A stretch of 64,000 nucleotides of DNA from Marsupella aquatica. Taxonomy: Eukaryota > Plantae > Marchantiophyta. The stretch lies in NCBI GenBank assembly GCA_973895155.1, contig OZ316893.1, positions 17,614,770 to 17,678,769 on the forward strand. The letters are read 5' to 3'. Positions within the stretch are counted from its first letter, which is position 1; each line of letters begins with the position of its first letter. The notes beneath the pieces are model-generated. The model saw nothing but the letters and a program-made list of their open reading frames with translations, was not told the DNA's origin and made no database searches. A program made the translations under genes and the position numbers. Positions 1-64,000 of this stretch are shown in pieces.

Positions 1-1167
1 AAAGTGCTGCTGCTGTAGGTCTTCAGCGCGAAGTCGGGGACTTCAAGAGTAAACTTTCAAGGCATTGCCTTGTTGAATCTAGCATCTCAGAATTCTACGA
101 CTCAACATTTAACAAAGGGGAGAAGCCTTACTGGTGAATGGTGTAGAGAAATGGGGAAAGGATCTCATGAATTCTGGCTTTGGAGAGAAGGGCATTGTGC
201 GTGGTGGAAAGGAGAGATCGTTTGGAGTCCACGCGGGTTTTATCTACCTTCTGACAGGACTTAAACCATCTCTGCTAGACAGAAAAGTTCCGAAATGGAA
301 TGTCCTTGACCACACTTTGGCCACCTCTTTCTTTCGTGGAATGGATCCATTTTTATCTGATGACGGAATGCTGGCCATTTTACATAACGGGGAGTACAAT
401 CCGATGTCTCAGGTTACATCGGCTTGTCAGGATTCGAAGAAGTTTCATTGCATCTCGTTACACAATGTTGTCATGTCAGTTCCAATGTACGCGCCAAAGA
501 CTGACCGACAGGTAAATTTCTCATCGTGACATCTGGTTTGCGGTTCAAAGAATGTTTATGAATGTGTCCATTGACATACCTTTCTTGGGTTATATTACAG
601 ATCTTCACGCTCAGGCTGGACGTCTTCTGTTGAGTGTCTGAAAAAGGGAAGGTGCCAAAAGACTCGAGGTTTAGACCTCTGTCAGTCACGGAAGATCCCT
701 CCATAACAAATTTAATTGGACTTCCCTCTCTCAAAGTCGATCCAACACCTGAGATGGAATTTTCTGGAAATGCCCGCTTGTCGGTTGGATTCATGCAATC
801 TATGATTGAGCTCATCACTCATCCTAGGGATATTTTCATGGATTGGACAGTGGGGTCGGGTAGCGCTTTTGTAGCTGGAGACTATTCTGGGAGGTTTGTA
901 ATTGGAGTGGAGAATAGGAAAGATTTTGTTGAAACTGATTCCAAGGTGTTCTTAGATCTACTTTCTCCAAAGGAAGTCGAAACTTTGCCACCCCCAATTC
1001 AACCACCCGAAAAGAAAAGGAGAGACAAGCTCCATTCTGTACTTAATTTTGACTCTGACGATGAGTCAAGTGGTGGTACAGCAGACGAAGATGAGGATGG
1101 CACACCTAAGGGGAAGGGTCAGGAACAATCCGCTGGCCAGAGTGACAGCGATGACTCTTCTGAGTAA
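1..1167 (+). pseudogene. 3' part of a spliced gene encoding a beta-class (N4C/N6A) DNA methyltransferase-fold protein (copy 1; 5' end outside window)
   Basis: Translation includes QSMIELITHPRDIFMDWTVGSGSAFVAGDYSGRFVIGVENRKDFVE, resembling MTase motifs X-I-II (LI...T.PGD.VLDPF.GSG...A....GR..IG.E). GT-AG intron 512-600. Collinear homolog at 44816-45063/60704-61692 (-). Premature TGA at 631 and a frame break near 134. Confidence 0.7.
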
Positions 1168-1594: not shown

Positions 1595-3190
1595 AGCGCC
1601 GGGCGCTGTTATCATGATACATGTATTTATTATCCCAGATATGATTTGTTTACATTACATTGATAATAAAATGTATTAAATTCCTCATTTCCCTTACTGG
1701 CGCTCCCCAAACGTCTATTTTTCTAATTGTGAATTTTGAATCCTCCGTCCGTTCCTTGGCCCCGCATATTTTGTTGTTACCGGAAACATTCGTCTCTTTC
1801 TCAACGGTCCTTTTTGCGTTGAACCTTGCTATGATACGTTTTTGCTGATCTCCGAACCTAAACTCTCCATTAGGTCACTCTTGCAAGTTATTTTAGGCAC
1901 ATCCTCTCTCGAAGTCGGGTCATTTCAACAACACCGATCTTGTCATTAGCCTCAATTGCGTTTAACAGTGCCCACTAGATGGAGAAGAAGGAGATCATGT
2001 CTTTGGAGGAGATGCTTGCCTTCTTCGCTCCTTCCAAAGTTTGACCGGATGAGAGTCACTTTAGCTCCTTCGAGTCCATTCATGGTGACACTTCCATCGA
2101 GACCTCGACCTTTCGGAATCGTTTTGCGCTTCCTTATGATGAGGCAATTAGTCCTAGGGAGAGGAACTTACCTTGGACTGACGACCGGGACACTCCGCTC
2201 GCAGTTGCTGATTGGTTTTCGTTTCATTCTGTCATTCCTGCTGATGGTATTCAGCCTATTGAGCGGCAAGTACAAGAGCGATTGGGACGTGTTGACTTCC
2301 TTGATACAAATGTTCCAGACCCCAGGAATCAGAATGCGGAGTTTCGGTGCCCCTCGTCTTCTTATGTGCGGCTCAGGGGTCTAGGTTTCAAGCAAAACCA
2401 CAGACGGGCCAGGGCGGGCATCGACAACAACTGCCAATCGCAGAGCTAAAGTTGTTCACGACGGAGGTGGTTTGAGTGAGACAAGCTTCAGTGGCCATAG
2501 GCTTGCCATTTAAGCTAGCGCCAAGCGCTGCTTTTGTTCGTCTTGGACCGTGGGATTTCTTCTATGGTTGATTCAAAGTTCATGTATTTCCGACTACATC
2601 TTTAGGCCCATTTTGGATGAGCGGGCCTGTTATGTGCGGCTCAGGTCAAGAAAAAGCACCTACGGGCCAGGGCGGGCTTTGACGACTACTGGAAATCGCA
2701 AGGATTATGGTGCTCGGGCCGGGGGTGCTTTCAGTGACAGAAGGTCCAGTTTTAGTGTGTTTGTGACGATTTACATTTAAGAGAGCTAGATTTAAGCTAG
2801 CGCCGAGCGCTACTTATGTTCATGTTATGCGTGGGCTGATTTGAAGATGATCTGTGGATGGTGTAATACCGATTATATGTTTTGACCAATTTTGGAAGTA
2901 AGGAATGCAGTTTTGGATCGGCTCTCTTGTTCTTTCATGGTCATTCATTGATTCCTAGATTTGAGATAGCGCCGAGCGCTGCTTATGTTCATTGTGTTCC
3001 TAGATTTGAGCTAGCATACTAGCGATGGGCGCTGCTAATATTTGCAAATTTTGGCAACGCCTTTTTCTAATGGCCGTTAAGTTTCCTGTTCTCTTCTCGA
3101 TTGAGGTTACGTAGAATCTCCATCTTTTTCATTATTTTAGGAATACCTAAATTTTGGCCCTTCCCTACCGGCATACTAGCATTGGGCGCT
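1595..3190. repeat. Cluster of AGCGC-N3-GCGCT palindromes within degenerate ~270 bp tandem units
   Basis: Exact copies at 1595, 2517, 2799 and 2968; degenerate copies at 3021 and 3178. Direct repeat TATGTGCGGCTCAGG...ACGGGCCAGGGCGGG at ~2363 and ~2631. Confidence 0.8.
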
Positions 3191-3426
3191 GGTAATCTTC
3201 GGTTTTTGGCAACACCTTTGTTCTAATGGCCCCTACTTTCCTTCACAATTGGATGGTGGTATTGAAAATGACTGAAAATGGGTTTATTGATGGTGTTTTT
3301 TTTAACTTCTTGACCAAATAATGGAGCTCAATCACATGTTGTTTTTTCCATTTCTCCTGGTAACAGTAATTGTTTGCTGTTATTGTTTCTTGGTTCCTGT
3401 CGTTTGTAAATACCCCCATCATTTCA

Positions 3427-4620: not shown

Positions 4621-4681
4621 ACACAACATCATCAATTATCAGTGGTTGATAACTGATATTAGTTATCTAAAAAATTTCAGA

Positions 4682-4935: not shown

Positions 4936-5006
4936 TACGGTACAGACACCTCATGGCAAAAATGTTTTCCTTCAAATTTTGAAGAAAAATTCAAGAATTT
5001 TTCTTC

Positions 5007-27766: not shown

Positions 27767-27791
27767 TTTTTGCAAAAAACCGGTCGCCGTA

Positions 27792-44815: not shown

Positions 44816-45063
44816 CTATTCCTTTTCCTCCTCCGAGTCCCCTGTACCTTGTTCCTCTCCACCTTCACTGGACTCATCATCAGAATCAAAATTGAGAACC
44901 GATTGAAGTTTATCTCGCTTCTCTTTGTCGGTAGCAAGAACAAGTGGAGGTAAAACCGCAATCTCCTTGGGAGACAACAAATCCATGAAAACCTTTGAAG
45001 CAGTTTCAATAAATTCTTTTCTATGTTCTATCCCACGTACAAACCGCCCAGAGAAGTCCCCTG
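44816..45063 (-). pseudogene. C-terminal remnant of ParB/MTase-like gene copy 2, displaced by element D
   Basis: AGDFSGRFVRGIEHRKEFIETASKVFMDLLSPKE...RDKLQSVLNFDSDDESS matches copy 1 at 870-1070. Confidence 0.85.
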
Positions 45064-48000
45064 TGTGATGCCTAGACAGGAATCACTCGGCCGGTTAAGT
45101 GGGTAAAGCAGGAAGGCACCCTAGGAACACCTTAGTATAGTGACAAAACAAGGAAAATATAAACAATTAGGGGCAACCATGGAACCCGGGCAGAGGCCGG
45201 AGGTAAGGCTGAGGGTGAAAACCCGATTAGGGTTAGGGCGCGTTAAGCGTCGGCGGCTAGGAAGGATCAACGGGAAGAAAGACCGGCAGAGGAGAGGGGT
45301 AAGAAGCGCTTGCAGGAGATGGTGGCTCATTTGCGAGCACGAACTAGGCAGACGACTACGGGAGGCCAACTACTGTCAGCTGCTTAGGCAAGCACTCGGG
45401 GAGAGAGTAGATACCGACGATCAACCTAAGGAGGGTATGAGCAACGTCAATCAAGCGGCACATTTCTGGGGATGCCTGTTCGAACGGGCAACTGAGTACA
45501 TCAAGACTTACGAGGACGAGGAGTCAGAAAGGGCAGCTCGAGAACGGCAGGAGCTCGCTCGATTGTGGGAGCTGCAGAAGACGGCTTTCTTAGGAGGCGA
45601 ACTCATCAAGGACGAGTTCCTGTGGACGCCTACTTCCAATCAACTCGACGATCTTCTGTTTTGCAAAGACAGCATCGTCGGCATCCGAGAGGCCATCAAG
45701 AACTGCAACGACATACACTGGGAATTAAAGGGTAGCACGGAAAGGTGGACCCGGGCAACGGTGCTAGGAGAAACCTCCACGGCAGCAGAGATGAAGAGGA
45801 AGGGAGCCGTCAACGATGAAGCCACCCCGGCAAAAAGAACGAGGTCGGCGGCACCAAAGAAGCCAGCCGAGCAGCAGAGCAGGAGGCAGGGAGAAGCCGA
45901 AGAGGAGGAGGTCGATCCCATCAAGGCCATTCCAACCAGGGATGACACCTGGAAAGGCTGGGCGGCAACCCTACCGGTGGAGGTGCAACTACATTTTGCA
46001 CGGGAGGAGGATGCATGCTTTACGGCCATGCAGACCAAGAAGTACCAAGGCTTCATGGCCGGATCCGGCTTGGAGGCCTTTGTAAGATTACCATGGCTGA
46101 AGCCGGAGGTACCGGAGTCAGACCTATTAGAATTCGTGGGGTCATGGGAACCCGAGACCAATTGCACGAGGATATATGGGAAGGATTTCTATCTTACTCC
46201 CAAGGTGATTGCCGAAGTGTTTGGCTTGCCGATGGGCAATAAGACCAAAGTTGATACCAGGAAGACCTTGCCTGACAAGGAGTTCCGGTCGTTCCCCGGG
46301 CCATCAACGAAGAATGGCTTCTTCCGGAACACCTGCACCAACCCGCACATAGGAGAGATGATCGACTTCTTGTGGGTGACCATGCATTGTAACTTGCCGA
46401 GGGCAGAGATCGGCAAGGCACAGGTCTATCTGGCAGAAAGGCCAGACCCAAGCCGGGACTACAACGGGTACCTCCTCAACCAGTTGAAGAAGATCTTAAA
46501 GGAGGAGCAGCAGGTAATCGGCATGGGGAGCGTGTCGCGGCTTGGCTATCACATGCCGCTGTTGTGCCGGTATGCCAGAGGTCAGACTTTTGCCCCGGTA
46601 CTTCCCCTGCAGGTAAGGGCACCCGAGGAAGCTCCAACGCCGAGGCCGTTGGCTGAGAAGCCTCAACCACCTGTTAGTCCTACGATCGAGCAGGTGTTTA
46701 GGCCCAGGAAGGAAGACTTGCCGATGCAGCAACCAGGCATGCAGAGTCTGCTGAAACTACTGGAGAAAGAAAAGAGATCGGCATCGGCAAAAACAACGGC
46801 AACGGCAACAATGCAGGACACTACTACAGAGGTAGGCCTACACCGGCTCACAAGAGAAAACCCCTTTGTTGGAGACAAGGAGAGAATCAGGCCGGAATCC
46901 AAGCCAGGTGTTCGAATGTACGTGGGAACCTCAAGCTCCGAATCTGAGGCAGAATTGCCTGAAGCTCCTACCAACGAAGAGGAGAGGGAGAAGTCGGACG
47001 TCCAAGAGGTAGAGGAGGCAGTGGAGGACTGCAGCCATGATAATTCCGGCTATGGGTCGGACCATCACGTTCCAGGAGTAAGGACCTGTGGCCGATTTGT
47101 CCCCACACTTCCAAGGGTAGTGCGAGGGGACCCCAACCAGCAGAGTAGCCCTGAGTCTCCCCCACCAGATGTTGCTCCCCCGAGCTTCGACGGCATAAAA
47201 CAGACGGTGCAGGAATTTCAGGAGCGAATCAAGCAGGAGGAAGAGGCCGCCCTGGCTAAGGAAAAGGATTTACCAGGAGGAGATTGGCCGGAGGACATCA
47301 GGCGGCTAGCCGAAAAAGGAAGCAAACCTCTAGCCACGATTGAAGAGATCCGCAGGACGGCTTGGGAGCAGAGGCCACGATGGGCGATGCCGATCACTTC
47401 TACTTACTCCACCTACGCTAAGAATAGAGCCATGGAGTATGGTGAGATGTGTGGGGAACTTGCGCTCGGCATCTTTGGAGAGGAGTTGGAGGTAGGACCC
47501 TTTTTCCATAGGGAGCAGTTGGAGAAGCACCAATTAGAAGAAGCGGTGGCTTTAGAGAGAAGCAAGAAGGACGAGGTCATTCGGCGGCTTAGGAGGATGG
47601 AAGCCGAGATTGAAGATCTAAGGGCGGCCAAGAAAGCCCAAGATGAACTGCGGATTAAACGACATGAGCTGAACATCATGCAGGGGCAGTTGGACGCCGC
47701 GCAGGCTGATAATCAGAATATCAAGGATAAACTGACTCAGACGCAGGAAGAGTTGGCCGACACGATCAAAGAAAGGGAAAAGTGGAAGCAAGAGCTGAAG
47801 AATACAGAGGAGGCCCACATAACAGCCAACAGCCGGGCCATGGCAGAGACCCAAAGAAAGGAATGGGCGTTGAAAGGGGAGCTCGAGAAAATCCGCGGAG
47901 CCCTTGAGCAGAAGGAGGTCGAGTTAGGGAAATCCTATCAAGGGATTATGGCGCTGCAGCAGGAGCTTGCGTCCCTGACGGCCAGCTTCAAGGCCGACCT

Positions 48001-49772
48001 AAGGGAGAAGGACGAGATGCTCGAACAGACTTACGCCAAGATGAACCAGATGGAGTCTGTCATCATTGCAGAGCTCGACAAGGAGCTAAGAGCAACCCAG
48101 GAGGAGAAGGCTACCTTGAAGAAGGAATTGGAGGAAGCCCACAGGGAGCAGGAGGAGGCCAAAAACGAGCTGGAGGGGGCACGTAAGGACCTGGATGAAA
48201 CCCAAGAGGAGTTGGAGGAAATCACGAGGAAGATGGAGAACCTACAGCGGCGGGCCGACAACCAAACAGAGCGGCTGAAGAAACAAGCCGCAGTATTTAA
48301 ATGCTTAGCTGCAGCAGGTCCATCTCCTGTTGGGACAAACCAGTTACCAGGGGTGGTAATTGCCGAAGGACAAGCCGCGCCACCTGCACCAGTGCCGGAG
48401 GTAAGTGGGAAGGGGAAGGGACCAGCTGCCGAGCCACCAACGAAGAAGAAGCGGAAACCTTCAGGGTCAAGGAGTAATACGACTTCACAGGCCGTGGTGA
48501 TCAAGGAGGTAGACCCAGCACCGACCCCAGACAGGGTCACGGCTAAGGATCCAACTACCCTAGGGGAAGGGGAAGCCGAAGCCGTGGGAGTGGCTGAAGC
48601 CAAAGCCGTGGGAGTGGCTGAAGCCGAAGCCGTGGGAGTGGCTGAAGCCGAAGCCGTGGGGGTGGCTGAAGCCGAAGCCGTGGGTATTGCCGAGGCCGGT
48701 GTCGAGGCTGAAGCCGAAGGTGGACCCAGTCAGGCCGATGGAGAGTTGACTCGGTCAATGGCAGGTAATCTGTCAGTAGGCGGGCCAACGGCAGTGGCTG
48801 AGGAGGAAGTGTTGGGGGCGTCCATTGAGGATCCACCACCGGTGTCGTGACGGTGCAAGGGCGCCGTTCCTTTTAGGGAGGGCGGACGTGGAGGGAGGAG
48901 GCGTGAGTGGGCAGGGCGGGCACGGATCTCCACGTTTAGGATTAGGATCAGAACCAGGAGCGGCCCTGACACTTAGCTTAGTGGGATTGCGGTCCCACTG
49001 GTAGGAGCAACACTTGTGCTCCTGCCTTGCTGTACATAGGTAGATTCGGGCAAGTAGATTACTGTTAAGTAGATTAGGCTTACGATGCAAAGAATGGCGG
49101 ATCCACTACCAGGATAAGTACCTGGGCAGCGGGGAGCTCAGGGCCTCTTCTTTAGCAAGTTTTTAGTTTGCACCAGCCGGGCTGGGATCAAGTAGTACGA
49201 GAAGCTCTCGGTTAGTCATACAGTGACCCTTGTGTATATTCATGTTTCCTCATGCCTAAGAGCTGAATAGAGTTGGCCTCACGGCTTAGTTCGCAGAACT
49301 TGTGTATGAGATGTACTGTTTGTATGGCAAGTGCATGGTATGACTCAATCAGAATGAGTCATTTTGCTATTTGTGTGTCGCATTAACTTGTGTGAAGAGT
49401 GCCCACATCTACCAGAAGGAAGGAAAGTAAGCAGGGGAGTGAGAGTTGGATGTGTCGAGCTGAGAGAGGTCTTAGCGGCTTAACCAAGCCTATTGGGGAT
49501 CATTCCGGGGGCGGAATCCAAACATACCTAACAAGACGGAGGGGAAGACAGGGGAAGACAGGGGAAGGCCTATATTAGGCCGGCTACGTATCTCATGACC
49601 CGATGAAGGATCTGTCCAGTATATGTGTGTAAAATGTTAATAGTAGTAGTAGAAGGTTAGCAGCGTCCCATGCCGCTAAGCCGCGGAAACGGCCTCGCCA
49701 AGCACGAAACCTGCGGGAATCGGCTTGAGCTGGGGGGTTTCTTGGGTTTAGGGAGCCATGGGACGCACCACA
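45064..49772 (+). repeat. 5' LTR of element D (4709 bp)
   Basis: TGTGATGCC...GCACCACA, followed by TTTT and the PBS. Confidence 0.95.
45140..48850 (+). CDS. Intact 1236-aa LTR-encoded accessory protein: plant-transposon/PMD-like domain, long coiled coil, AEAEAVGV repeats
   Basis: Uninterrupted 3.7 kb ORF wholly inside the LTR. LLEFVGSWEPETNCTRIYGKDFYLTPKVIAEVFGLPMG; ~250-aa heptad region; homologous to the element C LTR ORF. First ATG at 45179. Confidence 0.85.
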   Translation: MTKQGKYKQLGATMEPGQRPEVRLRVKTRLGLGRVKRRRLGRINGKKDRQRRGVRSACRRWWLICEHELGRRLREANYCQLLRQALGERVDTDDQPKEGMSNVNQAAHFWGCLFERATEYIKTYEDEESERAARERQELARLWELQKTAFLGGELIKDEFLWTPTSNQLDDLLFCKDSIVGIREAIKNCNDIHWELKGSTERWTRATVLGETSTAAEMKRKGAVNDEATPAKRTRSAAPKKPAEQQSRRQGEAEEEEVDPIKAIPTRDDTWKGWAATLPVEVQLHFAREEDACFTAMQTKKYQGFMAGSGLEAFVRLPWLKPEVPESDLLEFVGSWEPETNCTRIYGKDFYLTPKVIAEVFGLPMGNKTKVDTRKTLPDKEFRSFPGPSTKNGFFRNTCTNPHIGEMIDFLWVTMHCNLPRAEIGKAQVYLAERPDPSRDYNGYLLNQLKKILKEEQQVIGMGSVSRLGYHMPLLCRYARGQTFAPVLPLQVRAPEEAPTPRPLAEKPQPPVSPTIEQVFRPRKEDLPMQQPGMQSLLKLLEKEKRSASAKTTATATMQDTTTEVGLHRLTRENPFVGDKERIRPESKPGVRMYVGTSSSESEAELPEAPTNEEEREKSDVQEVEEAVEDCSHDNSGYGSDHHVPGVRTCGRFVPTLPRVVRGDPNQQSSPESPPPDVAPPSFDGIKQTVQEFQERIKQEEEAALAKEKDLPGGDWPEDIRRLAEKGSKPLATIEEIRRTAWEQRPRWAMPITSTYSTYAKNRAMEYGEMCGELALGIFGEELEVGPFFHREQLEKHQLEEAVALERSKKDEVIRRLRRMEAEIEDLRAAKKAQDELRIKRHELNIMQGQLDAAQADNQNIKDKLTQTQEELADTIKEREKWKQELKNTEEAHITANSRAMAETQRKEWALKGELEKIRGALEQKEVELGKSYQGIMALQQELASLTASFKADLREKDEMLEQTYAKMNQMESVIIAELDKELRATQEEKATLKKELEEAHREQEEAKNELEGARKDLDETQEELEEITRKMENLQRRADNQTERLKKQAAVFKCLAAAGPSPVGTNQLPGVVIAEGQAAPPAPVPEVSGKGKGPAAEPPTKKKRKPSGSRSNTTSQAVVIKEVDPAPTPDRVTAKDPTTLGEGEAEAVGVAEAKAVGVAEAEAVGVAEAEAVGVAEAEAVGIAEAGVEAEAEGGPSQADGELTRSMAGNLSVGGPTAVAEEEVLGASIEDPPPVS

Positions 49773-49841
49773 TTTTTGGCGCTAGATGGAGGGGGCATTT
49801 CTTAAGCCGTGAGATATGAAGTTAGAACGGAAGCGTAGGTA

Positions 49842-52835
49842 ATGACTGACCTTACGCCGAGGGAAGAAAGAGTGATTCAACGGGAGAGAGCTCGACTGCA
49901 GCAGCTCGCCGGGTGGCATGATACACAGCGACTGAGAGGGGCAGAAAGAGTTGGTAGCTCCGAAACTGGAAGTGGCGTCGAAGAAGACATACCAGAAGAA
50001 GAGTCGGTAAGGAGAAGTGAGTCTCCAACCGACATGGGGGAACCAGAGGCACGGCCAGACGAGAGGCCAGGGACCAGATTGAGCCAGCGGTCGCGCATAC
50101 ATTACAAGGCATTTCATGGGAGAGGAGATGAGGATCCGGACGAATGGTTGGATGATTTTGAGGGAACCGCTGCAGCAAATGGAGAATCGGCCATCAAGAT
50201 GCAGATTCTTCCCGGCCTGTTCAAGGGTGAGGCTAGGCCTTGGTACAGAGCATTAGATGTGGAAGATCAAGCCATCTGGGATATCTTCAAAACACTCTTT
50301 GTTAAGGAGTTTCGACCCATTGGAACTTCAGAACTAGCAGTGCTGAAGTTGGGACAACTTCGGTTCAAGGAGAACAAATCCTTCAGGAAGTTCTTGCAAC
50401 GCTTTCAGAAACTGGTAAGACGTACAAAGACCAATGCATCTGAAGGTATGCAACTTCAATGGTTGGTGAATGCTTTGCCACAGAAGATGAGTTTTGCAAT
50501 TAGGAAGGAGAACCCGGAGACTTTAGCCGAAGCAATTAAGGATATTCAATTATACATTAATGCAGATATCACAAGCCGGAAGAAACAGCTTAAGTCTGAG
50601 AGTTCCTCATCAGAGGAGGGATCACCCCATAAGAAAAAAGATAAGAAGAAGAAACATTCCAAGAAGTCTAGAAGTGATAAGTCAAGCTCGGATAGTGGAA
50701 GTAGCAAGAGTGAGTCATCTTCTAGTTCTGAAGAAGAAAAAACTAGGAAAAGGAAGGGCAGAAGGAGAGGGAAGACGAAAGTCAAGATGGAGGCTAAGCC
50801 ACCAGATAACATCGTAGCCCTTACCGAGCAACTTAAGGCTATCATTGTAGAGGTAAAACCAAAGAAGAAGGTAGTACAGGAGGATAGCTCTGTATGGTGT
50901 GCCTTATGTTATAAAACCGGACACCATAAAGATGCTTGTCCTAAGCTTAATACTAATCATGTTCGGCATGTGGCCGAGATCAGACCATGTCAGGGAGAAG
51001 TAGAGTACTTTTTGGGAGATGCCGCTGATAGTGTTTTCGGCATCAGTGAGACTGGAGCACGAGACCTATCCAACAGACCTGCATCTCTGTGGTCAGGGTT
51101 AAGGAACAATCCAGGAGAGATGTATCCTCGGATTATTCAGAACCCGTCAGTACCTCCTAGGCCGAATGTGCAAAGATTTGCGGCGTGCTATAATTGTGGT
51201 CAACCTGGCCATTTTGCTAGAGAATGCCCGAATGCACGCAAACAGGGTGATGGACAACCAGCTCAGCTATGTATGGGATGCCGACAGGAAGGTCATATGC
51301 TAGGGCAATGTCCTACTTGGTTGGCAGGCCTAGCCGCAAATCATAAGCTTTTGCCGATCAAGATCTTACCGCCAGGTACTACCCCCGGAGGAGTTCAAAT
51401 CAACCACATCGAACTAGGATGGCAAGAGGATGCCGAGGCAGAGTTCGTACCATCTGATGATGAGGCCGAAGCCCTATCAACCTTCTCAGAGGAGGATTTA
51501 GATCATGATTGCTACCGGGTCTCTACTCGATCTACCAGAAGGAAGGAAAGGTGGGATGGGCTAGCCAAAAATAAAGGGAAGGTTACGGAGGAAAGGATCG
51601 ACTCTTCGTCAACATCAACAGAAGGAGAAGGGAGGGCTCCGGCAATACAGGTAAGCCATGAGCCCACCAGTGAAACCAATCCTTCACAAGATAGCGACTT
51701 CAATCGAGATCATCCTAAGTTGTTCTACCCCTCTGTTACGGCTAGTGTTAAGGAACAACTAAGAGAATTAGAAACCCTGGAGAATACCGAAGCCATTGCC
51801 AAGGATGTAAAACGAGCAAAAGCATTGTTTGCTTCGGAAGACCCAACAGCTGTGGAGACTAGCGTGGCAAAACTGGCCGAATCCAAGACGGAAACACCAC
51901 CAGAAGAGAAGCCGATTGTTCCCTATGACCTGGCTAAAGATGTACTAGAATCTAGAGTCTCGGCAACAGTAGGTCAACTATTGAAAAATAGCCCGTACTT
52001 CCGGAAGCAATTAAGGAAGGCTATTCTCGGCAAGCCGAGATTACCCAAGGTAGCAACCAGAGCCGACGTACTAATGATAGAAGAAGATCAAGGAGCCCCA
52101 GCATTACCATTAATGATTCAAGGAGAATTATTACTCCGGGTACCCATCGATGGAGGATCAGGGGTATGTATTATGATTGATTCAACAGCAAAAGGGTGGG
52201 GTCTAACACCGGAGATGACTGGAAGAGTGTTGAACATGGCCAATGGATATCAGGTCATTCCGACGGGAGTGTTAACCGGCATCAAGATAGAGATAGGAGG
52301 TATCTTCTTTAGCATTAACTATGTAGTAATGAAGCCGGTAAATCCTACGTCATTCCGGCTATTGATTGGTAGGCCATGGCTGTACCTAGCCGAGGTAATA
52401 GAAGATTGGGGTAAAAAGCAGTTCACTTTCGGGACCCCCTCTATCACGGTATCCTGGGACACTAAGGATGACCGTAGGAAAAGCATAAGGGAAGTAGATG
52501 GGTACGATAGTGGACTGGAGTCAGCCGATGAAGTACGTTGGTTAGAATGCTTCACTAACCTAACCGAAGAAGGTGTCTTTGGACCAGAGGTACCCCCCAG
52601 CGGATTATGGCAAGAACCAATGGAAGGTGACTTGGAAGAAGAAGACGAAGAGGTCGAGGACTGCTTTACAATAGAATCCACCTTTTTAGCTGCAATTCCG
52701 GAGGAAGTTAAGGATGTAGACCAATTGGATGAAACGGCTAAGTGGGGAGCAGTAGCAGGGACAGTGGATTTTCTGCAGGCGTTGTGGCAGAGCCGACGGG
52801 GTCCACAACGCCATCGATCATCGGCAAGGAATTAA
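49842..52835 (+). CDS. gag: Gag and aspartic protease of element D
   Basis: DEDPDEWLDDFE capsid-like start, CCHC knuckles (CYNCGQPGHFAREC), VPIDGGSG protease motif, LIGRPWL. Confidence 0.92.
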   Translation: MTDLTPREERVIQRERARLQQLAGWHDTQRLRGAERVGSSETGSGVEEDIPEEESVRRSESPTDMGEPEARPDERPGTRLSQRSRIHYKAFHGRGDEDPDEWLDDFEGTAAANGESAIKMQILPGLFKGEARPWYRALDVEDQAIWDIFKTLFVKEFRPIGTSELAVLKLGQLRFKENKSFRKFLQRFQKLVRRTKTNASEGMQLQWLVNALPQKMSFAIRKENPETLAEAIKDIQLYINADITSRKKQLKSESSSSEEGSPHKKKDKKKKHSKKSRSDKSSSDSGSSKSESSSSSEEEKTRKRKGRRRGKTKVKMEAKPPDNIVALTEQLKAIIVEVKPKKKVVQEDSSVWCALCYKTGHHKDACPKLNTNHVRHVAEIRPCQGEVEYFLGDAADSVFGISETGARDLSNRPASLWSGLRNNPGEMYPRIIQNPSVPPRPNVQRFAACYNCGQPGHFARECPNARKQGDGQPAQLCMGCRQEGHMLGQCPTWLAGLAANHKLLPIKILPPGTTPGGVQINHIELGWQEDAEAEFVPSDDEAEALSTFSEEDLDHDCYRVSTRSTRRKERWDGLAKNKGKVTEERIDSSSTSTEGEGRAPAIQVSHEPTSETNPSQDSDFNRDHPKLFYPSVTASVKEQLRELETLENTEAIAKDVKRAKALFASEDPTAVETSVAKLAESKTETPPEEKPIVPYDLAKDVLESRVSATVGQLLKNSPYFRKQLRKAILGKPRLPKVATRADVLMIEEDQGAPALPLMIQGELLLRVPIDGGSGVCIMIDSTAKGWGLTPEMTGRVLNMANGYQVIPTGVLTGIKIEIGGIFFSINYVVMKPVNPTSFRLLIGRPWLYLAEVIEDWGKKQFTFGTPSITVSWDTKDDRRKSIREVDGYDSGLESADEVRWLECFTNLTEEGVFGPEVPPSGLWQEPMEGDLEEEDEEVEDCFTIESTFLAAIPEEVKDVDQLDETAKWGAVAGTVDFLQALWQSRRGPQRHRSSARN

Positions 52836-55800
52836 AAACCAAGGGATCGGCATACAAGCCGATTACGAGGGCAGAACAAATTGAGGCCCTATTAGAAGCC
52901 GAGAGAGCACAGCGGCCTAACTCTCAGGAGCAAGAGGTGGATGAGATGGACAGACACGATCCAGAGCCAAGGCAGGAAGGGGAGCCGGCCACTAATTCAA
53001 AACTGAATAGACCGGTAAGGGGACAATCTATGGACACCAAGGAAGGGACCGACTCGGCTAGTCCAGCCGAGATCCCAGTTTATGGAGGTATGAGATTAGA
53101 GAGACTGGAAGCCGAACTGGACCCGAATTTGAAGAAGCAGATTAATATGATCCAAGCACGGCAATATCGGAAGCTCGACTTAGGAGAGGGAAGAGAACTG
53201 AACTTAGGGAGAAACCTAGCACCTGAGCTCGAGAAAGAGATCAGTGACTTATTGATTGAATTTCAGGATGTGTTTGCATGGAGTCACCAAGATCTAAAGG
53301 GAGTAGATCCAACACTAGGGGAACATCGAATTGATCTCATGTTAGGAGCCAAATCATTTCGACAACCAATTCGAAGGATGAACCCGAAGTATTCCCTGCT
53401 GGTCAAAACAGAAATCGACAAACTAGTGGAAGCTGGATTCATCACTCCAGTCCTGCATTCAGACTGGGTGTCTCCAATTGTGATAGTTCCCAAGAAAGCT
53501 GGACCCGATGGTAAACCCAAGATCCGGGTTTGTCAGGATTACAGGAAGCTGAATGAAGCAACATTAAAAGACCATTTTCCTTTACCGTTTACTGATATGG
53601 TACTAGACATGGTAGCCAGTCATGAACTATATTCATTCATGGATGGATACTCTGGTTATAACCAAATCAGGATTCGGCAGGAAGACCAAATCAAGACGGC
53701 CTTCATCACGGAATGGGGGATCTATGTCTTCAATCGTATGCCGTTTGGACTCTGCAATGCACCAGCTATGTTCCAACGATTAATGGTGAACATTTTTCAT
53801 GATTACTTGAGAAAGTTCATGGAAATCTTCATTGATGACTTTGCAGTATTCGGGAAGGCATCAAAACATGCTAAATACCTCAGGAAAACCTTCATGAGAT
53901 GTAGGGAGGTGGGTCTCAAGTTACACCTAGATAAATGTTTTTTTGCAGTAACCGAGGGGGTGCTACTAGGTCACAAGGTATCAAGGAAGGGCATTGAGAT
54001 TGACAAAGGTAAGCTAGCAGTATGGCTAGATATCATGCAACCTAAGAACATAAAGGATGTAAGATCCTTCTTGGGATGCATTGGTTACTATCGCCGGTTC
54101 ATCAAGGATTTTGCCAAGCTAGCTTTACCATTAACCAATATGCTCAAGGCAGGAGCAGACTTCGAACCCACACCCGAACGAGTCACAGCGGTAGTAGAAT
54201 TGAAGCAGATGTTAGTAGAGGCCCCAGTCATGATAGCACCGGACTGGAACAAAGATTTTCATGTTTTTGTAGATGTCTCGGGCTTCTGTATTGGCTCAGT
54301 ACTAAGTCAGTTGGATGAGAAAGGAAGGGACCATCCCATATACTTCGCAAGCCGTCAGCTTGCCGATGCCGAACGGAACTACTCTACCACGGAAAGAGAA
54401 GCATTAGGAGTCATTTATTCTTGTAAAAAGTTTAGGCATTATTTACTAGGGTACAAGGTAATCTTTCATACGGATCATGAAAGTTTGAAGTACCTAGTCA
54501 ATAAGCCGGACCTTACAGGCAGAGTAGCACGATGGATTTTGCTATTACAGGAGTTTGACTATGAGCTGAGGATCAAGCCGGGAAAGTTACATGCCAATGC
54601 CGACTTCTTTTCAAGGATCACAGGTAAACCTGCCACGGATTGCATCGATGATCAATTCCCCGACGAGGAGCTATTCGTTGTGGAAATAGCTGGTACATGG
54701 TACCCTGAGATTTTACAATTTCTCAGCACTTCCAGATTACAGCCAGGATTAAGCCGAGAGCAAGCCGCAGTCTTTGTGCGGAAGGTCAGACAATATCAGT
54801 GCATTAAAGGCATACTGCACAAGCATGGAATCAACGGCACGATTCAAAGGTGTTTGGAGAAGAGAGAGGTAAAACGAGTCCTACGGGCCATGCATGGAGA
54901 GGAGGCCGGAGGACATTTTGCCCCAGTAACCACGTCTAAGAAGATATTAAATGCCGGTTACTGGTGGCCCACCTTGCACAAGGATGTCTATCAGTTTATC
55001 AAACAATGCGATCCTTGTCAACGAGCGGGAGGACCAAGGGCGTCCACCAGGCATCCACTGCACCCTATTCTACCTCTGGCACCATTCGAGAAGTGGGGTA
55101 TTGATTACATTGGACCTCTGAAACCACTGACCCACCCTCGACGGAACAAGTACATAATCCTGGCTACGGATTATGCAACTAAATGGGTAGAGGCCAGACC
55201 AACAACGAAGGATGATGCAATTACTACGGCTAGATTCATGTATGAGCAGATCTTCACCAGGTATGGAGCACCCCTAGAATTAGTTAGTGATAGAGGAACC
55301 CATTTTTTGAATGATATAATTAGTCGTTTAAATGAGCAGTATTTAGTTAAACATAGGCCTACTACTCCCTACCATCCAAAGGCAAACGGGTTGACAGAAC
55401 GAGCAAACGGAATCATAGGAAAGATATTGAACAAAACAGTAGCTCAGAACAAACTCGATTGGGATGATAAATTGTTTGCTGCTGTTTTTGCTTACAATCT
55501 TGCCTATAAATCCACTACTGGTCATACACCCTTCTTCTTAACCTTTGGACAAGAAGCCCTGGTACCCATGCAACTTGAGATACCGACATTTCAAGTTACA
55601 ATTGAGGAAAGAGCCTCAGCGGAGGAGAGCCTAAAGGAGCGAGAATATAGGTTAGAAGCTTTAGAGGAAGCGAGAATGATTTCAGCCGAGAGAGTAGAAT
55701 ATAGACAGAATATCATGAAGCAGCAGTATGATAAAAGGTTAAAAGTAGTTAGTATTCATACCGGTGATCTTGTGTTACTTTATGACAGTAGGTATAGTAG

Positions 55801-56008
55801 GTTTCCAGGGAAGCTTTACACTCGCTGGTTAGGACCCTTTAGAGTAACCATGATGTTCCCCAATGGCTCCGTACAATTGGCCAACATTACGGGAGAGGTA
55901 TATCCAGTTCGCATCCATTATGACCGCCTCAAGAAATACTATATGGACGAAGATGAAGTTGTTCGCGAGGACGCTTCACAATTAAGTGGGGAGCTATGTG
56001 ATGCCTAG
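52742..56008 (+). CDS. pol: Pol (RT-RNase H-integrase) of element D, in the -1 frame relative to gag-PR; stop codon lies inside the 3' LTR
   Basis: KIRVCQDYRKLN, MPFGLCNAP, FIDDF, VDVSG, GGHFAP..CDPCQR, WGIDYIGP, SDRGTHF, WLGPF. Confidence 0.94.
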   Translation: MGSSSRDSGFSAGVVAEPTGSTTPSIIGKELKTKGSAYKPITRAEQIEALLEAERAQRPNSQEQEVDEMDRHDPEPRQEGEPATNSKLNRPVRGQSMDTKEGTDSASPAEIPVYGGMRLERLEAELDPNLKKQINMIQARQYRKLDLGEGRELNLGRNLAPELEKEISDLLIEFQDVFAWSHQDLKGVDPTLGEHRIDLMLGAKSFRQPIRRMNPKYSLLVKTEIDKLVEAGFITPVLHSDWVSPIVIVPKKAGPDGKPKIRVCQDYRKLNEATLKDHFPLPFTDMVLDMVASHELYSFMDGYSGYNQIRIRQEDQIKTAFITEWGIYVFNRMPFGLCNAPAMFQRLMVNIFHDYLRKFMEIFIDDFAVFGKASKHAKYLRKTFMRCREVGLKLHLDKCFFAVTEGVLLGHKVSRKGIEIDKGKLAVWLDIMQPKNIKDVRSFLGCIGYYRRFIKDFAKLALPLTNMLKAGADFEPTPERVTAVVELKQMLVEAPVMIAPDWNKDFHVFVDVSGFCIGSVLSQLDEKGRDHPIYFASRQLADAERNYSTTEREALGVIYSCKKFRHYLLGYKVIFHTDHESLKYLVNKPDLTGRVARWILLLQEFDYELRIKPGKLHANADFFSRITGKPATDCIDDQFPDEELFVVEIAGTWYPEILQFLSTSRLQPGLSREQAAVFVRKVRQYQCIKGILHKHGINGTIQRCLEKREVKRVLRAMHGEEAGGHFAPVTTSKKILNAGYWWPTLHKDVYQFIKQCDPCQRAGGPRASTRHPLHPILPLAPFEKWGIDYIGPLKPLTHPRRNKYIILATDYATKWVEARPTTKDDAITTARFMYEQIFTRYGAPLELVSDRGTHFLNDIISRLNEQYLVKHRPTTPYHPKANGLTERANGIIGKILNKTVAQNKLDWDDKLFAAVFAYNLAYKSTTGHTPFFLTFGQEALVPMQLEIPTFQVTIEERASAEESLKEREYRLEALEEARMISAERVEYRQNIMKQQYDKRLKVVSIHTGDLVLLYDSRYSRFPGKLYTRWLGPFRVTMMFPNGSVQLANITGEVYPVRIHYDRLKKYYMDEDEVVREDASQLSGELCDA

Positions 56009-59000
56009 ACAGGAATCACTCGGCCGGTTAAGTGGGTAAAGCAGGAAGGCACCCTAGGAACACCTTAGTATAGTGACAAAACAAGGAAAATATAAACAAT
56101 TAGGGGCAACCATGGAACCCGGGCAGAGGCCGGAGGTAAGGCTGAGGGTGAAAACCCGATTAGGGTTAGGGCGCGTTAAGCGTCGGCGGCTAGGAAGGAT
56201 CAACGGGAAGAAAGACCGGCAGAGGAGAGGGGTAAGAAGCGCTTGCAGGAGATGGTGGCTCATTTGCGAGCACGAACTAGGCAGACGACTACGGGAGGCC
56301 AACTACTGTCAGCTGCTTAGGCAAGCACTCGGGGAGAGAGTAGATACCGACGATCAACCTAAGGAGGGTATGAGCAACGTCAATCAAGCGGCACATTTCT
56401 GGGGATGCCTGTTCGAACGGGCAACTGAGTACATCAAGACTTACGAGGACGAGGAGTCAGAAAGGGCAGCTCGAGAACGGCAGGAGCTCGCTCGATTGTG
56501 GGAGCTGCAGAAGACGGCTTTCTTAGGAGGCGAACTCATCAAGGACGAGTTCCTGTGATGCCTACTTCCAATCAACTCGACGATCTTCTGTTTTGCAAAG
56601 ACAGCGTCGTCGGCATCCGAGAGGCCATCAAGAACTGCAACGACATACACTGGGAATTAAAGGGTAGCACGGAAAGGTGGACCCGGGCAACGGTGCTAGG
56701 AGAAACCTCCACGGCAGCAGAGATGAAGAGGAAGGGAGCCGTCAACGATGAAGCCACCCCGGCAAAAAGAACGAGGTCGGCGGCACCAAAGAAGCCAGCC
56801 GAGCAGCAGAGCAGGAGGCAGGGAGAAGCCGAAGAGGAGGAGGTCGATCCCATCAAGGCCATTCCAACCAGGGATGACACCTGGAAAGGCTGGGCGGCAA
56901 CCCTACCGGTGGAGGTGCAACTACATTTTGCACGGGAGGAGGATGCATGCTTTACGGCCATGCAGACCAAGAAGTACCAAGGCTTCATGGCCGGATCCGG
57001 CTTGGAGGCCTTTGTAAGATTACCATGGCTGAAGCCGGAGGTACCGGAGTCAGACCTATTAGAATTCGTGGGGTCATGGGAACCCGAGACCAATTGCACG
57101 AGGATATATGGGAAGGATTTCTATCTTACTCCCAAGGTGATTGCCGAAGTGTTTGGCTTGCCGATGGGCAATAAGACCAAAGTTGATACCAGGAAGACCT
57201 TGCCTGACAAGGAGTTCCGGTCGTTCCCCGGGCCATCAACGAAGAATGGCTTCTTCCGGAACACCTGCACCAACCCGCACATAGGAGAGATGATCGACTT
57301 CTTGCGGGTGACCATGCATTGTAACTTGCCGAGGGCAGAGATCGGCAAGGCACAGGTCTATCTGGCAGAAAGGCCAGACCCAAGCCGGGACTACAACGGG
57401 TACCTCCTCAACCAGTTGAAGAAGATCTTAAAGGAGGAGCAGCAGGTAATCGGCATGGGGAGCGTGTCGCAGCTTGGCTATCACATGCCGCTGTTGTGCC
57501 GGTATGCCAGAGGTCAGACTTTTGCCCCGGTACTTCCCCTGCAGGTAAGGGCACCCGAGGAAGCTCCAACGCCGAGGCCGTTGGCTGAGAAGCCTCAACC
57601 ACCTGTTAGTCCTACGATCGAGCAGGTGTTTAGGCCCAGGAAGGAAGACTTGCCGATGCAGCAACCAGGCATGCAGAGTCTGCTGAAACTACTGGAGAAA
57701 GAAAAGAGATCGGCATCGGCAAAAACAACGGCAACGGCAACAATGCAGGACACTACTACAGAGGTAGGCCTACACCGGCTCACAAGAGAAAACCCCTTTG
57801 CTGGAGACAAGGAGAGAATCAGGCCGGAATCCAAGCCAGGTGTTCGAATGTACGTGGGAACCTCAAGCTCCGAATCTGAGGCAGAATTGCCTGAAGCTCC
57901 TACCAACGAAGAGGAGAGGGAGAAGCCGGACGTCCAAGAGGTAGAGGAGGCAGTGGAGGACTGCAGCCATGATAATTCCGGCTATGGGTCGGACCATCAC
58001 GTTCCAGGAGTAAGGACCTGTGGCCGGTTTGTCCCCACACTTCCAAGGGTAGTGCGAGGGGACCCCAACCAGCAGAGTAGCCCTGAGTCTCCCCCACCAG
58101 ATGTTGCTCCCCCGAGCTTCGACGGCATAAAACAGACGGTGCAGGAATTTCAGGAGCGAATCAAGCAGGAGGAAGAGGCCGCCCTGGCTAAGGAAAAGGA
58201 TTTACCAGGAGGAGATTGGCCGGAGGACATCAGGCGGCTAGCCGAAAAAGGAAGCAAACCTCTAGCCACGATTGAAGAGATCCGCAGGACGGCTTGGGAG
58301 CAGAGGCCACGATGGGCGATGCCGATCACTTCTACTTACTCCACCTACGCTAAGAATAGAGCCATGGAGTATGGTGAGATGTGTGGGGAACTTGCGCTCG
58401 GCATCTTTGGAGAGGAGTTGGAGGTAGGACCCTTTTTCCATAGGGAGCAGTTGGAGAAGCACCAATTAGAAGAAGCGGTGGCTTTAGAGAGAAGCAAGAA
58501 GGACGAGGTCATTCGGCGGCTTAGGAGGATGGAAGCCGAGATTGAAGATCTAAGGGCGGCCAAGAAAGCCCAAGATGAACTGCGGATTAAACAACATGAG
58601 CTGAACATCATGCAGGGGCAGTTGGACGCCGCGCAGGCTGATAATCAGAATATCAAGGATAAACTGACTCAGACGCAGGAAGAGTTGGCCGACACGATCA
58701 AAGAAAGGGAAAAGTGGAAGCAAGAGCTGAAGAATATAGAGGAGGCCCACATAACAGCCAACAGCCGGGCCATGGCAGAGACCCAAAGAAAGGAATGGGC
58801 GTTGAAAGGGGAGCTCGAGAAAATCCGCGGAGCCCTTGAGCAGAAGGAGGTCGAGTTAGGGAAATCCTATCAAGGGATTATGGCGCTGCAGCAGGAGCTT
58901 GCGTCCCTGACGGCCAGCTTCAAGGCCGACCTAAGGGAGAAGGACGAGATGCTCGAACAGACTTACGCCAAGATGAACCAGATGGAGTCTGTCATCATTG

Positions 59001-60703
59001 CAGAGCTCGACAAGGAGCTAAGAGCAACCCAGGAGGAGAAGGCTACCTTGAAGAAGGAATTGGAGGAAGCCCACAGGGAGCAGGAGGAGGCCAAAACGAG
59101 CTGGAGGGGGCACGTAAGGACCTGGATGAAACCCAAGAGGAGTTGGAGGAAATCACGAGGAAGATGGAGAACCTACAGCGGCGGGCCGACAACCAAACAG
59201 AGCGGCTGAAGAAACAAGCCGCAGTATTTAAATGCTTAGCTGCAGCAGGTCCATCTCCTGTTGGGACAAACCAGTTACCAGGGGTGGTAATTGCCGAAGG
59301 ACAAGCCGCGCCACCTGCACCAGTGCCGGAGGTAAGTGGGAAGGGGAAGGGACCAGCTGCCGAGCCACCAACGAAGAAGAAGCGGAAACCTTCAGGGTCA
59401 AGGAGTAATACGACTTCACAGGCCGTGGTGATCAAGGAGGTAGACCCAGCACCGACCCCAGACAGGGTCACGGCTAAGGATCCAACTACCCTAGGGGAAG
59501 GGGAAGCCGAAGCCGTGGGAGTGGCTGAAGCCGAAGCCGTGGGAGTGGCTGAAGCCGAAGCCGTGGGAGTGGCTGAAGCCGAAGCCGTGGGGGTGGCTGA
59601 AGCCGAAGCCGTGGGTATTGCTGAGGCCGGTGTCGAGGCTGAAGCCGAAGGTGGACCCAGTCAGGCCGATGGAGAGTTGACTCGGTCAATGGCAGGTAAT
59701 CTGTCAGTAGGCGGGCCAACGGCAGTGGCTGAGGAGGAAGTGTTGGGGGCGTCCATTGAGGATCCACCACCGGTGTCGTGACGGTGCAAGGGCGCCGTTC
59801 CTTTTAGGGAGGGCGGACGTGGAGGGAGGAGGCGTGAGTGGGCAGGGCGGGCACGGATCTCCACGTTTAGGATTAGGATCAGAACCAGGAGCGGCCCTGA
59901 CACTTAGCTTAGTGGGATTGCGGTCCCACTGGTAGGAGCAACACTTGTGCTCCTGCCTTGCTGTACATAGGTAGATTCGGGCAAGTAGATTACTGTTAAG
60001 TAGATTAGGCTTACGATGCAAAGAATGGCGGATCCACTACCAGGATAAGTACCTGGGCAGCGGGGAGCTCAGGGCCTCTTCTTTAGCAAGTTTTTAGTTT
60101 GCACCAGCCGGGCTGGGATCAAGTAGTACGAGAAGCTCTCGGTTAGTCATACAGTGACCCTTGTGTATATTCATGTTTCCTCATGCCTAAGAGCTGAATA
60201 GAGTTGGCCTCACGGCTTAGTTCGCAGAACTTGTGTATGAGATGTACTGTTTGTATGGCAAGTGCATGGTATGACTCAGTCAGAATGAGTCATTTTGCTA
60301 TTTGTGTGTCGCATTAACTTGTGTGAAGAGTGCCCACATCTACCAGAAGGAAGGAAAGTAAGCAGGGGAGTGAGAGTTGGATGTGTCGAGCTGAGAGAGG
60401 TCTTAGCGGCTTAACCAAGCCTATTGGGGATCATTCCGGCGGCGGAATCCAAACATACCTAACAAGACGGAGGGGAAGACAGGGGAAGACAGGGGAAGGC
60501 CTATATTAGGCCGGCTACGTATCTCATGACCCGATGAAGGATCTGTCCAGTATATGTGTGTAAAATGTTAATAGTAGTAGTAGAAGGTTAGCAGCGTCCC
60601 ATGCCGCTAAGCCGCGGAAACGGCCTCGCCAAGCACGAAACCTGCGGGAATCGGCTTGAGCTGGGGGGTTTCTTGGGTTTAGGGAGCCATGGGACGCACC
60701 ACA
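55997..60703 (+). repeat. 3' LTR of element D (4707 bp); accessory ORF broken by two 1-bp deletions
   Basis: Direct repeat of the 5' LTR. Frameshifts near 56556 and 59095. Confidence 0.95.
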
Positions 60704-63700: not shown

Positions 63701-64000
63701 AAGAATTCTGTTCTCATCCGTTTGCTGCACATAGAAACGCATTCCTATGGATGAATTGTAACCCATACTACAAAACGAGTCTTTGAGCTTCTTGATGGAA
63801 GAGCTGTCTTTCTGCAAAGTACAAACCACCTCCATGTGAACCAATCGACAAAGAGGGATTCGAGGCGGCTCCTTGTCAAATCCACGAGAATCCTTCCCAA
63901 AACACATGACATGCTTTGAGATGAGATCAGTCTCCACGAGCGCGCAATCTGCAACATCCTGGATTGCAATTGTGTCAAGGTTCTCCATCTTTCTATGCAA
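60704..64000 (-). pseudogene. ParB-like plus DNA methyltransferase-fold spliced gene, copy 2 (continues at 45063-44816)
   Basis: RIPLCRLVHMEVV..L....IKKLKDSF..MGY ... MFSVFDGNHRLYSW (ParB/Srx DGNHR motif, ~63545-63583). GT-AG introns at 63301-63422 and 60984-61072; the latter has the same position and 89-bp length as in copy 1. IELVTQPRDIFMDWTARAGSSFIAG. Confidence 0.75.

What the first reader, a model, noticed from the sequence alone, without database searches (positions are those of the whole stretch)
1..1167. Intron-containing ParB-like plus prokaryote-type beta-class DNA methyltransferase-fold gene, in two inverted diverged copies
Seen: 1-1167 (+) and 64000-60704/45063-44816 (-) are homologous. 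They show many synonymous third-position differences and share an 89-bp GT-AG intron. The right copy has an N-terminal DGNHR ParB/Srx-like motif; both have a C-terminal IELxTxPRDIFMDWxxGSGS..AG..SGR..IG.E block. Established: ParB-MTase fusions with this motif order are typical of phages and prokaryotic mobile elements, while eukaryotic beta-class N4C MTases are rare (bdelloid N4CMT, Marchantia DN4MT1). Inference: a horizontally derived, spliced ParB-MTase family carried by a plant mobile element. The expected DPPY/SPPY position reads FIYLPTG/FIYLLTG, so it may be a catalytically altered DNA reader or clamp rather than an active methylase.
Basis: partly seen in the sequence, partly recalled or inferred. 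Interest (0 to 1): 0.82.

Follow-up and report, generated by a model that had tools for sequence, protein, structure and literature searches.

The report
Transposon-borne ParB pseudo-methylase with palindromes
These are two broken copies of a spliced gene from a many-copy plant repeat, likely a liverwort DNA transposon; its product is predicted to join a bacterial ParB-type fold to a DNA-methylase fold that lacks the catalytic motif, and it likely docks on a short palindrome found in the non-coding DNA of both copies, a land-plant variant of cargo genes already reported on algal transposons.

Summary
1-1167 (+) and 64000-60704 plus 45058-44816 (-) are two decayed copies of one spliced gene; a Gypsy insertion splits the second. 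They share 71% of residues with near-saturated silent sites (pN/pS 0.20) and an 89-nt intron. Homologue models give a beta-class amino-methyltransferase fold (CcrM, Z 18.4) and, weakly, a ParB/Srx fold (best Z 5.5; 11 of 11 rows). The catalytic motif is rebuilt family-wide (xLP[TN]G; 0 of 73 homologues have [DNSH]PP[YFW]) while SAM-motif residues are kept. Nothing points to 4mC. Copy A lies in a high-copy repeat that ends at 3416. New here: a palindrome, AGCGCYNRGCGCT, occurs exactly 6 times in the window, 4 in A's non-coding tail and 2 in B's introns, where other non-coding DNA does not align. Best reading: a transposon accessory protein that likely binds its own element's palindromes as a non-catalytic module, VANC-like. 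No transposase lies in the window; binding, function and expression are untested. ParB-methylase cargo genes are published for algal transposons, and this scan has noted the system often in this genome. New variant of a known kind; interest 0.42.

The parts
1..511 (+). Copy A, exon with the linker and first half of the methyltransferase-like domain (motif-IV position FIYLLTG); cut by the window start; frame change near 132
   Evidence: homologue P0001 runs through the break; other copies have one more base there in all 4 runs
512..600 (+). Copy A, 89-nt GT-AG intron, phase 0
   Evidence: same site spliced in the named liverwort models P0002/P0003
601..1167 (+). Copy A, last exon: second half of methyltransferase-like domain (motif I DWTVGSG), acidic tail, stop; premature stop at 631-633
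   Evidence: Pfam N6_N4_Mtase E 5.6e-5, below the curated cut-off
1595..1607 (.). Palindrome AGCGCYNRGCGCT, exact, isolated site 3' of gene A
2362..3231 (.). Degenerate direct-repeat array (150-280 nt spacing) holding exact palindromes at 2517, 2799, 2968 and near matches at 3021, 3178
3397..3416 (-). Right end of copy A's element (reads GGGGTATTTAC... inward)
   Evidence: contigs leave the window behind 3416 into unlike flanks: 9 in X1 (agreement 0.41), 12 in X2 (0.43); the 20-mer is unique in the window
63423..64000 (-). Copy B, ParB/Srx-like exon (FDGNHRL), cut by the window end, one stop at 63658
   Evidence: 9 homologues E 2.7e-25 to 2.6e-86; homologue fold
63301..63422 (-). Copy B intron 1 (122 nt) with an exact palindrome at 63353
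   Evidence: a GTAAG donor at or within 3 nt of this site in 4 of 4 metagenome loci
61969..63300 (-). Copy B middle exon, no Pfam family, several stops and frame changes
61779..61968 (-). Copy B intron 2 (190 nt) with an exact palindrome at 61929 and a near match at 61836
61073..61778 (-). Copy B exon with linker and motif-IV position FIYLPTG; frame change near 61450
60984..61072 (-). Copy B intron 3 (89 nt), same site as A's
60704..60983 (-). Copy B last exon, first part (motif I DWTARAG)
45064..60703 (-). Gypsy LTR retrotransposon inserted in B's last exon; LTRs 99.7% alike, TSD CCCTG
44816..45058 (-). Copy B last exon, tail and stop

Best explanation
The window holds two dead copies of a spliced gene from a many-copy repeat, likely a DNA transposon of a liverwort, whose intact product would be a roughly 1,100-residue protein with a predicted ParB/Srx-type fold at the front and a predicted beta-class DNA-methyltransferase fold without the catalytic motif at the back, and which likely binds the palindrome AGCGCYNRGCGCT in its own element's introns and repeat array to shield or license that element. 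Shown: two copies, purifying selection before death, shared introns, many diverged copies, one element end, family-wide loss of [DNSH]PP[YFW] with motif I kept, and the palindrome confined to non-coding DNA of both copies. Predicted: both folds (from homologue models). Inferred: that the repeat is a cut-and-paste transposon, that this protein is what reads the palindrome, that it works as a dimer on the two-fold site (as ParB and beta-class enzymes do), that the methylase fold acts as a SAM-binding DNA-holding module rather than a writer, and that the outcome is anti-silencing in trans, as for VANC.
For: pN/pS 0.20 over 320 codons. 1,035, 1,959, 1,581 and 1,012 contigs laid on 1-5000 in 4 of 4 runs, mostly under 99% alike, all 30 bins covered; loose ends into unlike flanks behind 3416. 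83 proteins at E<=0.001; 6 of the 10 looked up carry names, all liverwort (4 Calypogeia fissa, 2 Riccia sorocarpa). Homologue P0003 model pLDDT 83: CcrM E 9.5e-12, Z 18.4, rmsd 3.6, 214 aligned. Motif-IV columns: L 32 of 36, P 34 of 36, G 25 of 36, D only 3 of 36; motif I D 43, W 36, G 35, G 39 of 46; motif II E 38 of 50; canonical motif in 0 of 73 homologue rows. ParB-like homologue P0088 model pLDDT 78.6: all 11 chains at Z>=2 among 48,161 are ParB/Srx-fold proteins (family assignment recalled); FDGNHR in 10 of 10 rows. Palindrome: 6 exact sites, 4 in A's non-coding tail, 2 in B's introns; 0 of 2,000 shuffles of B's two intron regions give 2 copies of either arm seen in A, 6 give 1; none in the neighbouring, different ParB-methylase repeat. 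Precedent: PMC12477816 and 10.1101/2025.02.11.637652 (passages).
Against: No transposase in the window: 0 of 104 ORFs scanned match a DNA-transposase family; only one element end is seen, so TIR and TSD are untested. The ParB fold match is weak (Foldseek best E 0.04, Z 5.5, below the tool's trust level; no Pfam ParB hit in 9 of 9 homologues; no PDB sequence hit). Both folds come from homologues, not from the window's broken genes. The palindrome pattern was chosen after seeing it, and another 5-3-5 arm (CTTGC) has 7 copies, all in duplicated LTR-type repeats. The palindrome could be read by the transposase or a host factor. No expression data. CpG observed/expected is 0.85 in A's spacer against 0.48-0.62 in the genes, but the Gypsy at 27773-41544 has 0.92, so this shows no protection.
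Confidence: 0.5

Rival explanations
1. The protein is an active DNA amino-methyltransferase with a rebuilt active site that marks its own element (6mA or 4mC) near the palindromes.
For: Whole beta-class fold kept; SAM-motif residues conserved; the replaced motif is itself conserved (LP[TN]G), so the pocket is under selection; Riccia homologues keep an aspartate (DPPT, DLPS).
Against: The polar first residue and aromatic last residue that hold the target base (PMC4738411; PMC10406627) are missing in 33 of 36 and nearly all rows; 0 of 73 canonical.
Confidence: 0.2
2. The protein is a structural aid to transposition: it loads at the palindromes as a nucleotide-gated clamp and brings the ends of a long element together, with no effect on chromatin marks.
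For: ParB-type fold with GNHR and the terminal Asn conserved; the array lies 185-1,050 nt from the element end at 3416.
Against: Sites also lie deep inside, in introns of the gene itself; CTP binding is untested; does not explain the methylase fold.
Confidence: 0.15
3. The gene is passive cargo, and the palindrome is a site for the transposase or a host factor.
For: No direct link between protein and site was shown; terminal and subterminal repeats are commonly transposase sites (recalled).
Against: Long purifying selection on the gene; the sites sit in the gene's own introns in B.
Confidence: 0.1
4. It is a host gene family, not carried by a mobile element.
For: No transposase in the window; introns conserved across distant homologues.
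Against: Over 1,000 diverged contigs per run and a sharp end with varied flanks at 3416; both copies dead and set among nested repeats.
Confidence: 0.05

Closest known systems
Accessory gene of Sola1-1_Ec32, Ectocarpus (PMC12477816; passages and supplement rows seen)
   Same: About 1,100-aa protein with a ParB-like domain and an N4C/N6A methyltransferase domain on a DNA transposon; proposed to bind and modify its own element.
   Different: Here a land-plant (liverwort-like) family; catalytic motif replaced family-wide; a candidate site is named. Transposase and superfamily not seen here; the one end (GGGGTATTT..) differs from AACCG-CGGTT. Sequence kinship to the Ectocarpus protein was not tested.
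Plavaka accessory genes PAG2/PAG3, Bostrychia (10.1101/2025.02.11.637652; passages seen; supplements not seen)
   Same: Transposon cargo with ParB-like and PF01555 domains; tandem arrays of inverted repeats next to the ParB gene, proposed as its sites.
   Different: There ParB is fused to a 2OG oxygenase and the methylase to SET, in separate genes; here they are one gene and the methylase motif is rebuilt.
VANC anti-silencing proteins of Arabidopsis VANDAL elements (PMC5735166; abstract seen)
   Same: Transposon-encoded second gene whose targets lie in the element's repeats; the functional model for the best explanation.
   Different: VANC has shown binding and hypomethylation and its targets change fast; here nothing is shown, the domains are bacterial-type, and the site is unchanged between copies with near-saturated silent sites. 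No homology claimed.
Beta-class amino-methyltransferases: CcrM, M.BceJIV, M1.HpyAVI, M.PvuII, bdelloid N4CMT, Marchantia DN4MT1
   Same: Predicted fold and motif order; motif I region.
   Different: No DPPY/SPPY; ParB-like fusion; repeat-borne and many-copy rather than a host gene. DN4MT1 has TSPPY and no extra domains.

Membership tests
Beta-class DNA amino-methyltransferases (PF01555) | Permuted Rossmann fold | tested here: met
   Homologue P0003 model: CcrM Z 18.4, rmsd 3.6, 214 aligned; E 9.5e-12
Beta-class DNA amino-methyltransferases (PF01555) | Motif IV before motif I | tested here: met
   Riccia P0051 74-279 matches PF01555 2-212; its DPPT shares the column with YLPT/YLLT
Beta-class DNA amino-methyltransferases (PF01555) | Catalytic motif [DNSH]PP[YFW] | tested here: not met
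   0 of 73 homologue rows and neither window copy
Beta-class DNA amino-methyltransferases (PF01555) | SAM-binding motif I (D-F-x-G-x-G) and acidic motif II | tested here: met
   As D-W-x-x-G-x-G: D 43, W 36, G 35, G 39 of 46; E 38 of 50. Copy B has lost the first G
Beta-class DNA amino-methyltransferases (PF01555) | Pfam gathering score 26.7 | tested here: not met
   23.6 bits for copy A's exon; best homologue 25.6
Beta-class DNA amino-methyltransferases (PF01555) | Methyl transfer to DNA | not testable with these tools
   needs an assay
N4-cytosine writers (N4CMT, DN4MT1, M.PvuII) | SPPY motif | tested here: not met
ParB/Srx superfamily | ParB/Srx fold | tested here: inconclusive
   Best Z 5.5 (rmsd 3.9, 88 aligned, sulfiredoxin; KorB tied); 11 of 11 rows are of this fold by recalled assignment; Foldseek best E 0.04
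ParB/Srx superfamily | G-x-(H/R)-R nucleotide-binding motif | tested here: met
   FDGNHR in 10 of 10 rows; motif definition recalled
ParB/Srx superfamily | CTP binding, helix-turn-helix reading of a parS-like site | not testable with these tools
ParB-methylase accessory genes of DNA transposons (Sola1-1_Ec32 type) | ParB-like and methylase-like domains in one gene | tested here: met
   copy B model, four exons on one strand
ParB-methylase accessory genes of DNA transposons (Sola1-1_Ec32 type) | Lies in a dispersed repeat with a defined end | tested here: met
   copy A only
ParB-methylase accessory genes of DNA transposons (Sola1-1_Ec32 type) | Transposase, TIRs and TSD in the same element | tested here: inconclusive
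   no transposase in 104 ORFs, but both elements run off the window and no genome is held
ParB-methylase accessory genes of DNA transposons (Sola1-1_Ec32 type) | Sequence kinship to the algal proteins | not tested
   the algal sequences were not fetched

The most novel reading that the evidence does not exclude
Land-plant DNA transposons carry a ParB/parS-like self-addressing system: a nucleotide-gated clamp that loads on the element's own palindrome and carries a rebuilt methylase pocket with a new job, reading or blocking host 5mC or writing a mark by non-canonical chemistry, so that the family escapes silencing.
Probability: 0.2. Interest if true: 0.8.

Novelty: new variant of a known kind. 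Interest (0 to 1): 0.42.

Why it matters
VANC is cited as the only transposon protein known to bind and modify its own element. A second, bacterial-type solution in land plants, with a named 13-bp candidate site, would make the published self-modification guess for algal ParB-methylase cargo directly testable, and could give a sequence-addressed chromatin tool. The two copies here are dead, the domain pairing is in print for algae, and function is unshown, which caps the score.

Tried and rejected
Conserved programmed frameshift: both copies change frame at the same place (132; 61450), but all 4 runs hold copies with one more base there and homologue P0001 reads through, so it is decay or sequencing error in a G run. 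One large cassette of gene A, a second ParB-methylase gene, Ulp1 and NIF: my first reading; dropped because contigs leave at 3416 and the palindrome stops there. No RNA holder was listed for 1-4900: no evidence either way on expression. Searches for longer fused homologues found none (weak, crowded searches). Profile comparisons of the second gene with the A/B family were not significant. A scan of viral contigs for an 18-nt palindrome pattern gave 3 scattered hits, taken as chance and not followed. The metagenome scan gave 4 loci of 1.2-1.8 kb, too short for context, none with the palindrome at up to 2 mismatches. The protein atlas gave no result. No dimer prediction was obtained, so the dimer step has no test here. 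My first codon comparison had three segments out of frame and was redone. Pfam Anthrax_toxA rows at E about 0.09 are chance. Nine paper searches found no paper describing this family in land plants; subscription journals, Repbase, Iyer 2011 (cited as ref 50 in PMC12477816) and PMC3918813 (not held) were not seen, nor bioRxiv supplements, which may bear on the novelty claim.

Full report
Observation. The two regions are homologous: 18-848 matches 61566-60735 at 69.5% and 877-1072 matches 45061-44866 at 71.6%. Over 320 codon pairs the differences fall 61/39/180 by codon position, pN 0.155, pS 0.777, pN/pS 0.20 (0.16-0.24), 71% residue identity. Both carry an 89-nt GT-AG intron at the same phase-0 site. 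The right copy (B) is one gene split by a Gypsy element at 45064-60703 with LTRs 99.7% alike and TSD CCCTG. B has four exons and three introns in the window; from those lengths and homologue P0087 I estimate about 1,100 residues for an intact product. Both copies are broken: A by a frame change near 132 and a stop at 631-633, B by six in-frame stops, about five apparent frame changes and the insertion. The shared-looking frame change is not programmed: other copies have one more base there in all four runs, and P0001 reads through.

The C-terminal domain. Pfam gives N6_N4_Mtase at E 5.6e-5, under the curated cut-off; a profile of the window pieces finds M1.HpyAVI in the PDB at E 6e-4 and 83 proteins at E<=0.001 among 1.84 billion, one to three of which (P0070, P0081, P0083) look like bacterial or chance matches and were left out, with seven more short rows, of the 73-homologue alignment A3. 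Of ten looked up, six carry names, all liverwort. The model of Calypogeia homologue P0003 (pLDDT 83) matches beta-class enzymes over the whole domain: CcrM E 9.5e-12, Z 18.4. The replacement is family-wide and conserved (L 32, P 34, G 25, D 3 of 36 rows), and 0 of 73 homologues have [DNSH]PP[YFW], the motif that holds the target base (PMC4738411 passages; PMC10406627 passages). Motif I and II residues are kept. So the domain looks like a SAM-binding methylase fold with a rebuilt base pocket. Nothing points to 4mC; DN4MT1 has TSPPY (10.1101/2021.02.12.428880 passages) and no extra domains (PMC8885841 passage).

The N-terminal domain. Nine homologues of B's first exon were found, none named beyond 'hypothetical', all with FDGNHR, and four metagenome loci keep the intron behind it. 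Pfam and PDB sequence searches give no ParB match; PHROGs gives one at E 0.054. The model of P0088 (pLDDT 78.6) gives sulfiredoxin and ParB as top Foldseek rows at E 0.04-0.3, and all 11 chains at Z>=2 among 48,161 are ParB/Srx-fold proteins by my recalled assignment, best Z 5.5. This is consistent but weak.

The carrier. No genome is held, so public runs were used. On 1-5000, 1,035, 1,959, 1,581 and 1,012 contigs were laid in four runs of two studies, mostly under 99% alike, covering all 30 bins; these runs may include the window's source and depth is no copy number. Behind 3416, 9 contigs in X1 and 12 in X2 run on into unlike sequence (agreement 0.41, 0.43), the sign of an element end. The end reads GGGGTATTTAC inward and is unique in the window; a G-rich end recalls Mutator-like elements (recalled, untested). 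No DNA transposase was found in 104 ORFs, but both elements run off the window on the 5' side of the gene, where the Ectocarpus element has its transposase on the other strand (strand stated; side inferred).

The palindrome. Prompted by the Bostrychia passage and a scan note, I looked for inverted repeats. AGCGCYNRGCGCT occurs exactly six times: 1595, 2517, 2799, 2968 in A's non-coding tail and 61929, 63353 in B's introns, with near matches at 3021, 3178 and 61836. At one mismatch there are 10 sites against 0.30 expected, two of them in an unrelated repeat; the pattern was picked after seeing it. A fairer test: in 2,000 shuffles of B's two intron regions, 6 gave one copy and none gave two copies of either arm present in A's tail. 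The sites share A/T-rich flanks. Silent sites between A and B are near saturation and their non-coding DNA does not otherwise align, so the site is likely under selection. It is absent from the adjacent repeat that carries a different ParB-methylase-like gene.

Mechanism. Most likely (0.5) the intact protein binds these sites, as a dimer on a two-fold site by analogy with ParB and beta-class enzymes (PMC10406627), the methylase fold acting as a non-catalytic module, and keeps its family active, like VANC (PMC5735166 abstract). Every step after the anatomy is inferred. Rivals: a non-canonical active methylase (0.2), a clamp aiding transposition (0.15), passive cargo (0.1), host gene family (0.05).

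What is known. A 1104-aa ParB-like plus N4C/N6A methyltransferase gene on Ectocarpus Sola1-1_Ec32 is published, with similar proteins cited for green and red algae and self-modification proposed (PMC12477816, passages and supplement rows). Bostrychia Plavaka elements have inverted-repeat arrays beside a ParB gene. Nine searches found no paper on a land-plant family, within the library's limits. Unreviewed notes of this scan describe like elements elsewhere in this genome (26 of 43 notes fit 'ParB transposon', 8 shown); they are leads, not support.

Verdict. Real, well conserved before death, dead here. A new variant of a known kind: land-plant, catalytically rebuilt, with a named candidate site. 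Interest 0.42; the boldest reading (a ParB/parS-like self-addressing, anti-silencing system) has probability 0.2 and would merit 0.8.

Noticed in passing
window 3417-4606 and 12228-14372 (+): A second, unrelated-looking broken gene with an ISGQH motif (ParB-like by recall) and a C-terminal N6_N4_Mtase match (14181-14369, E 7.6e-4) with an eroded motif I (LDFFTGG). Contigs join 4606 to 12228 in 3 of 4 runs. No significant profile match to the A/B family.
   Followed up: partly
window 15010-15634 and 15722-16560 (+): Ulp1 protease (Pfam E 1.9e-27) and NIF phosphatase (E 7.8e-5) genes follow the second gene at like contig depth, which falls at 17650 into a LINE relic: a separate multi-gene repeat ending near 17,570, into or beside which A's element is inserted.
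   Followed up: partly
window 4607-12227: Non-coding insertion flanked by AGCT, holding a Copia element (5008-12111) that in turn holds a very high-depth repeat at about 6811-8301.
   Followed up: no
window 17530-17564: Short hairpin GGCTGC-TTT-GCAGCC followed 14 nt later by CTAA near the end of the second repeat; Helitron-like by recall, but the next base is not T and the LINE relic may extend over it.
   Followed up: no
window 1950-2449 (+): Open frames of 134-144 codons between gene A and the array, no Pfam match; high contig cover.
   Followed up: no
window 23678-27766: Large inverted pair, 26019-27766 vs 25429-23678, 92% alike, with several CTTGC-N3-GCAAG palindromes.
   Followed up: no
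window 27773-41544 and 45064-60703: Two Gypsy elements with very long LTRs (3.9 and 4.7 kb) that contain long coiled-coil ORFs without a clear Pfam family.
   Followed up: no
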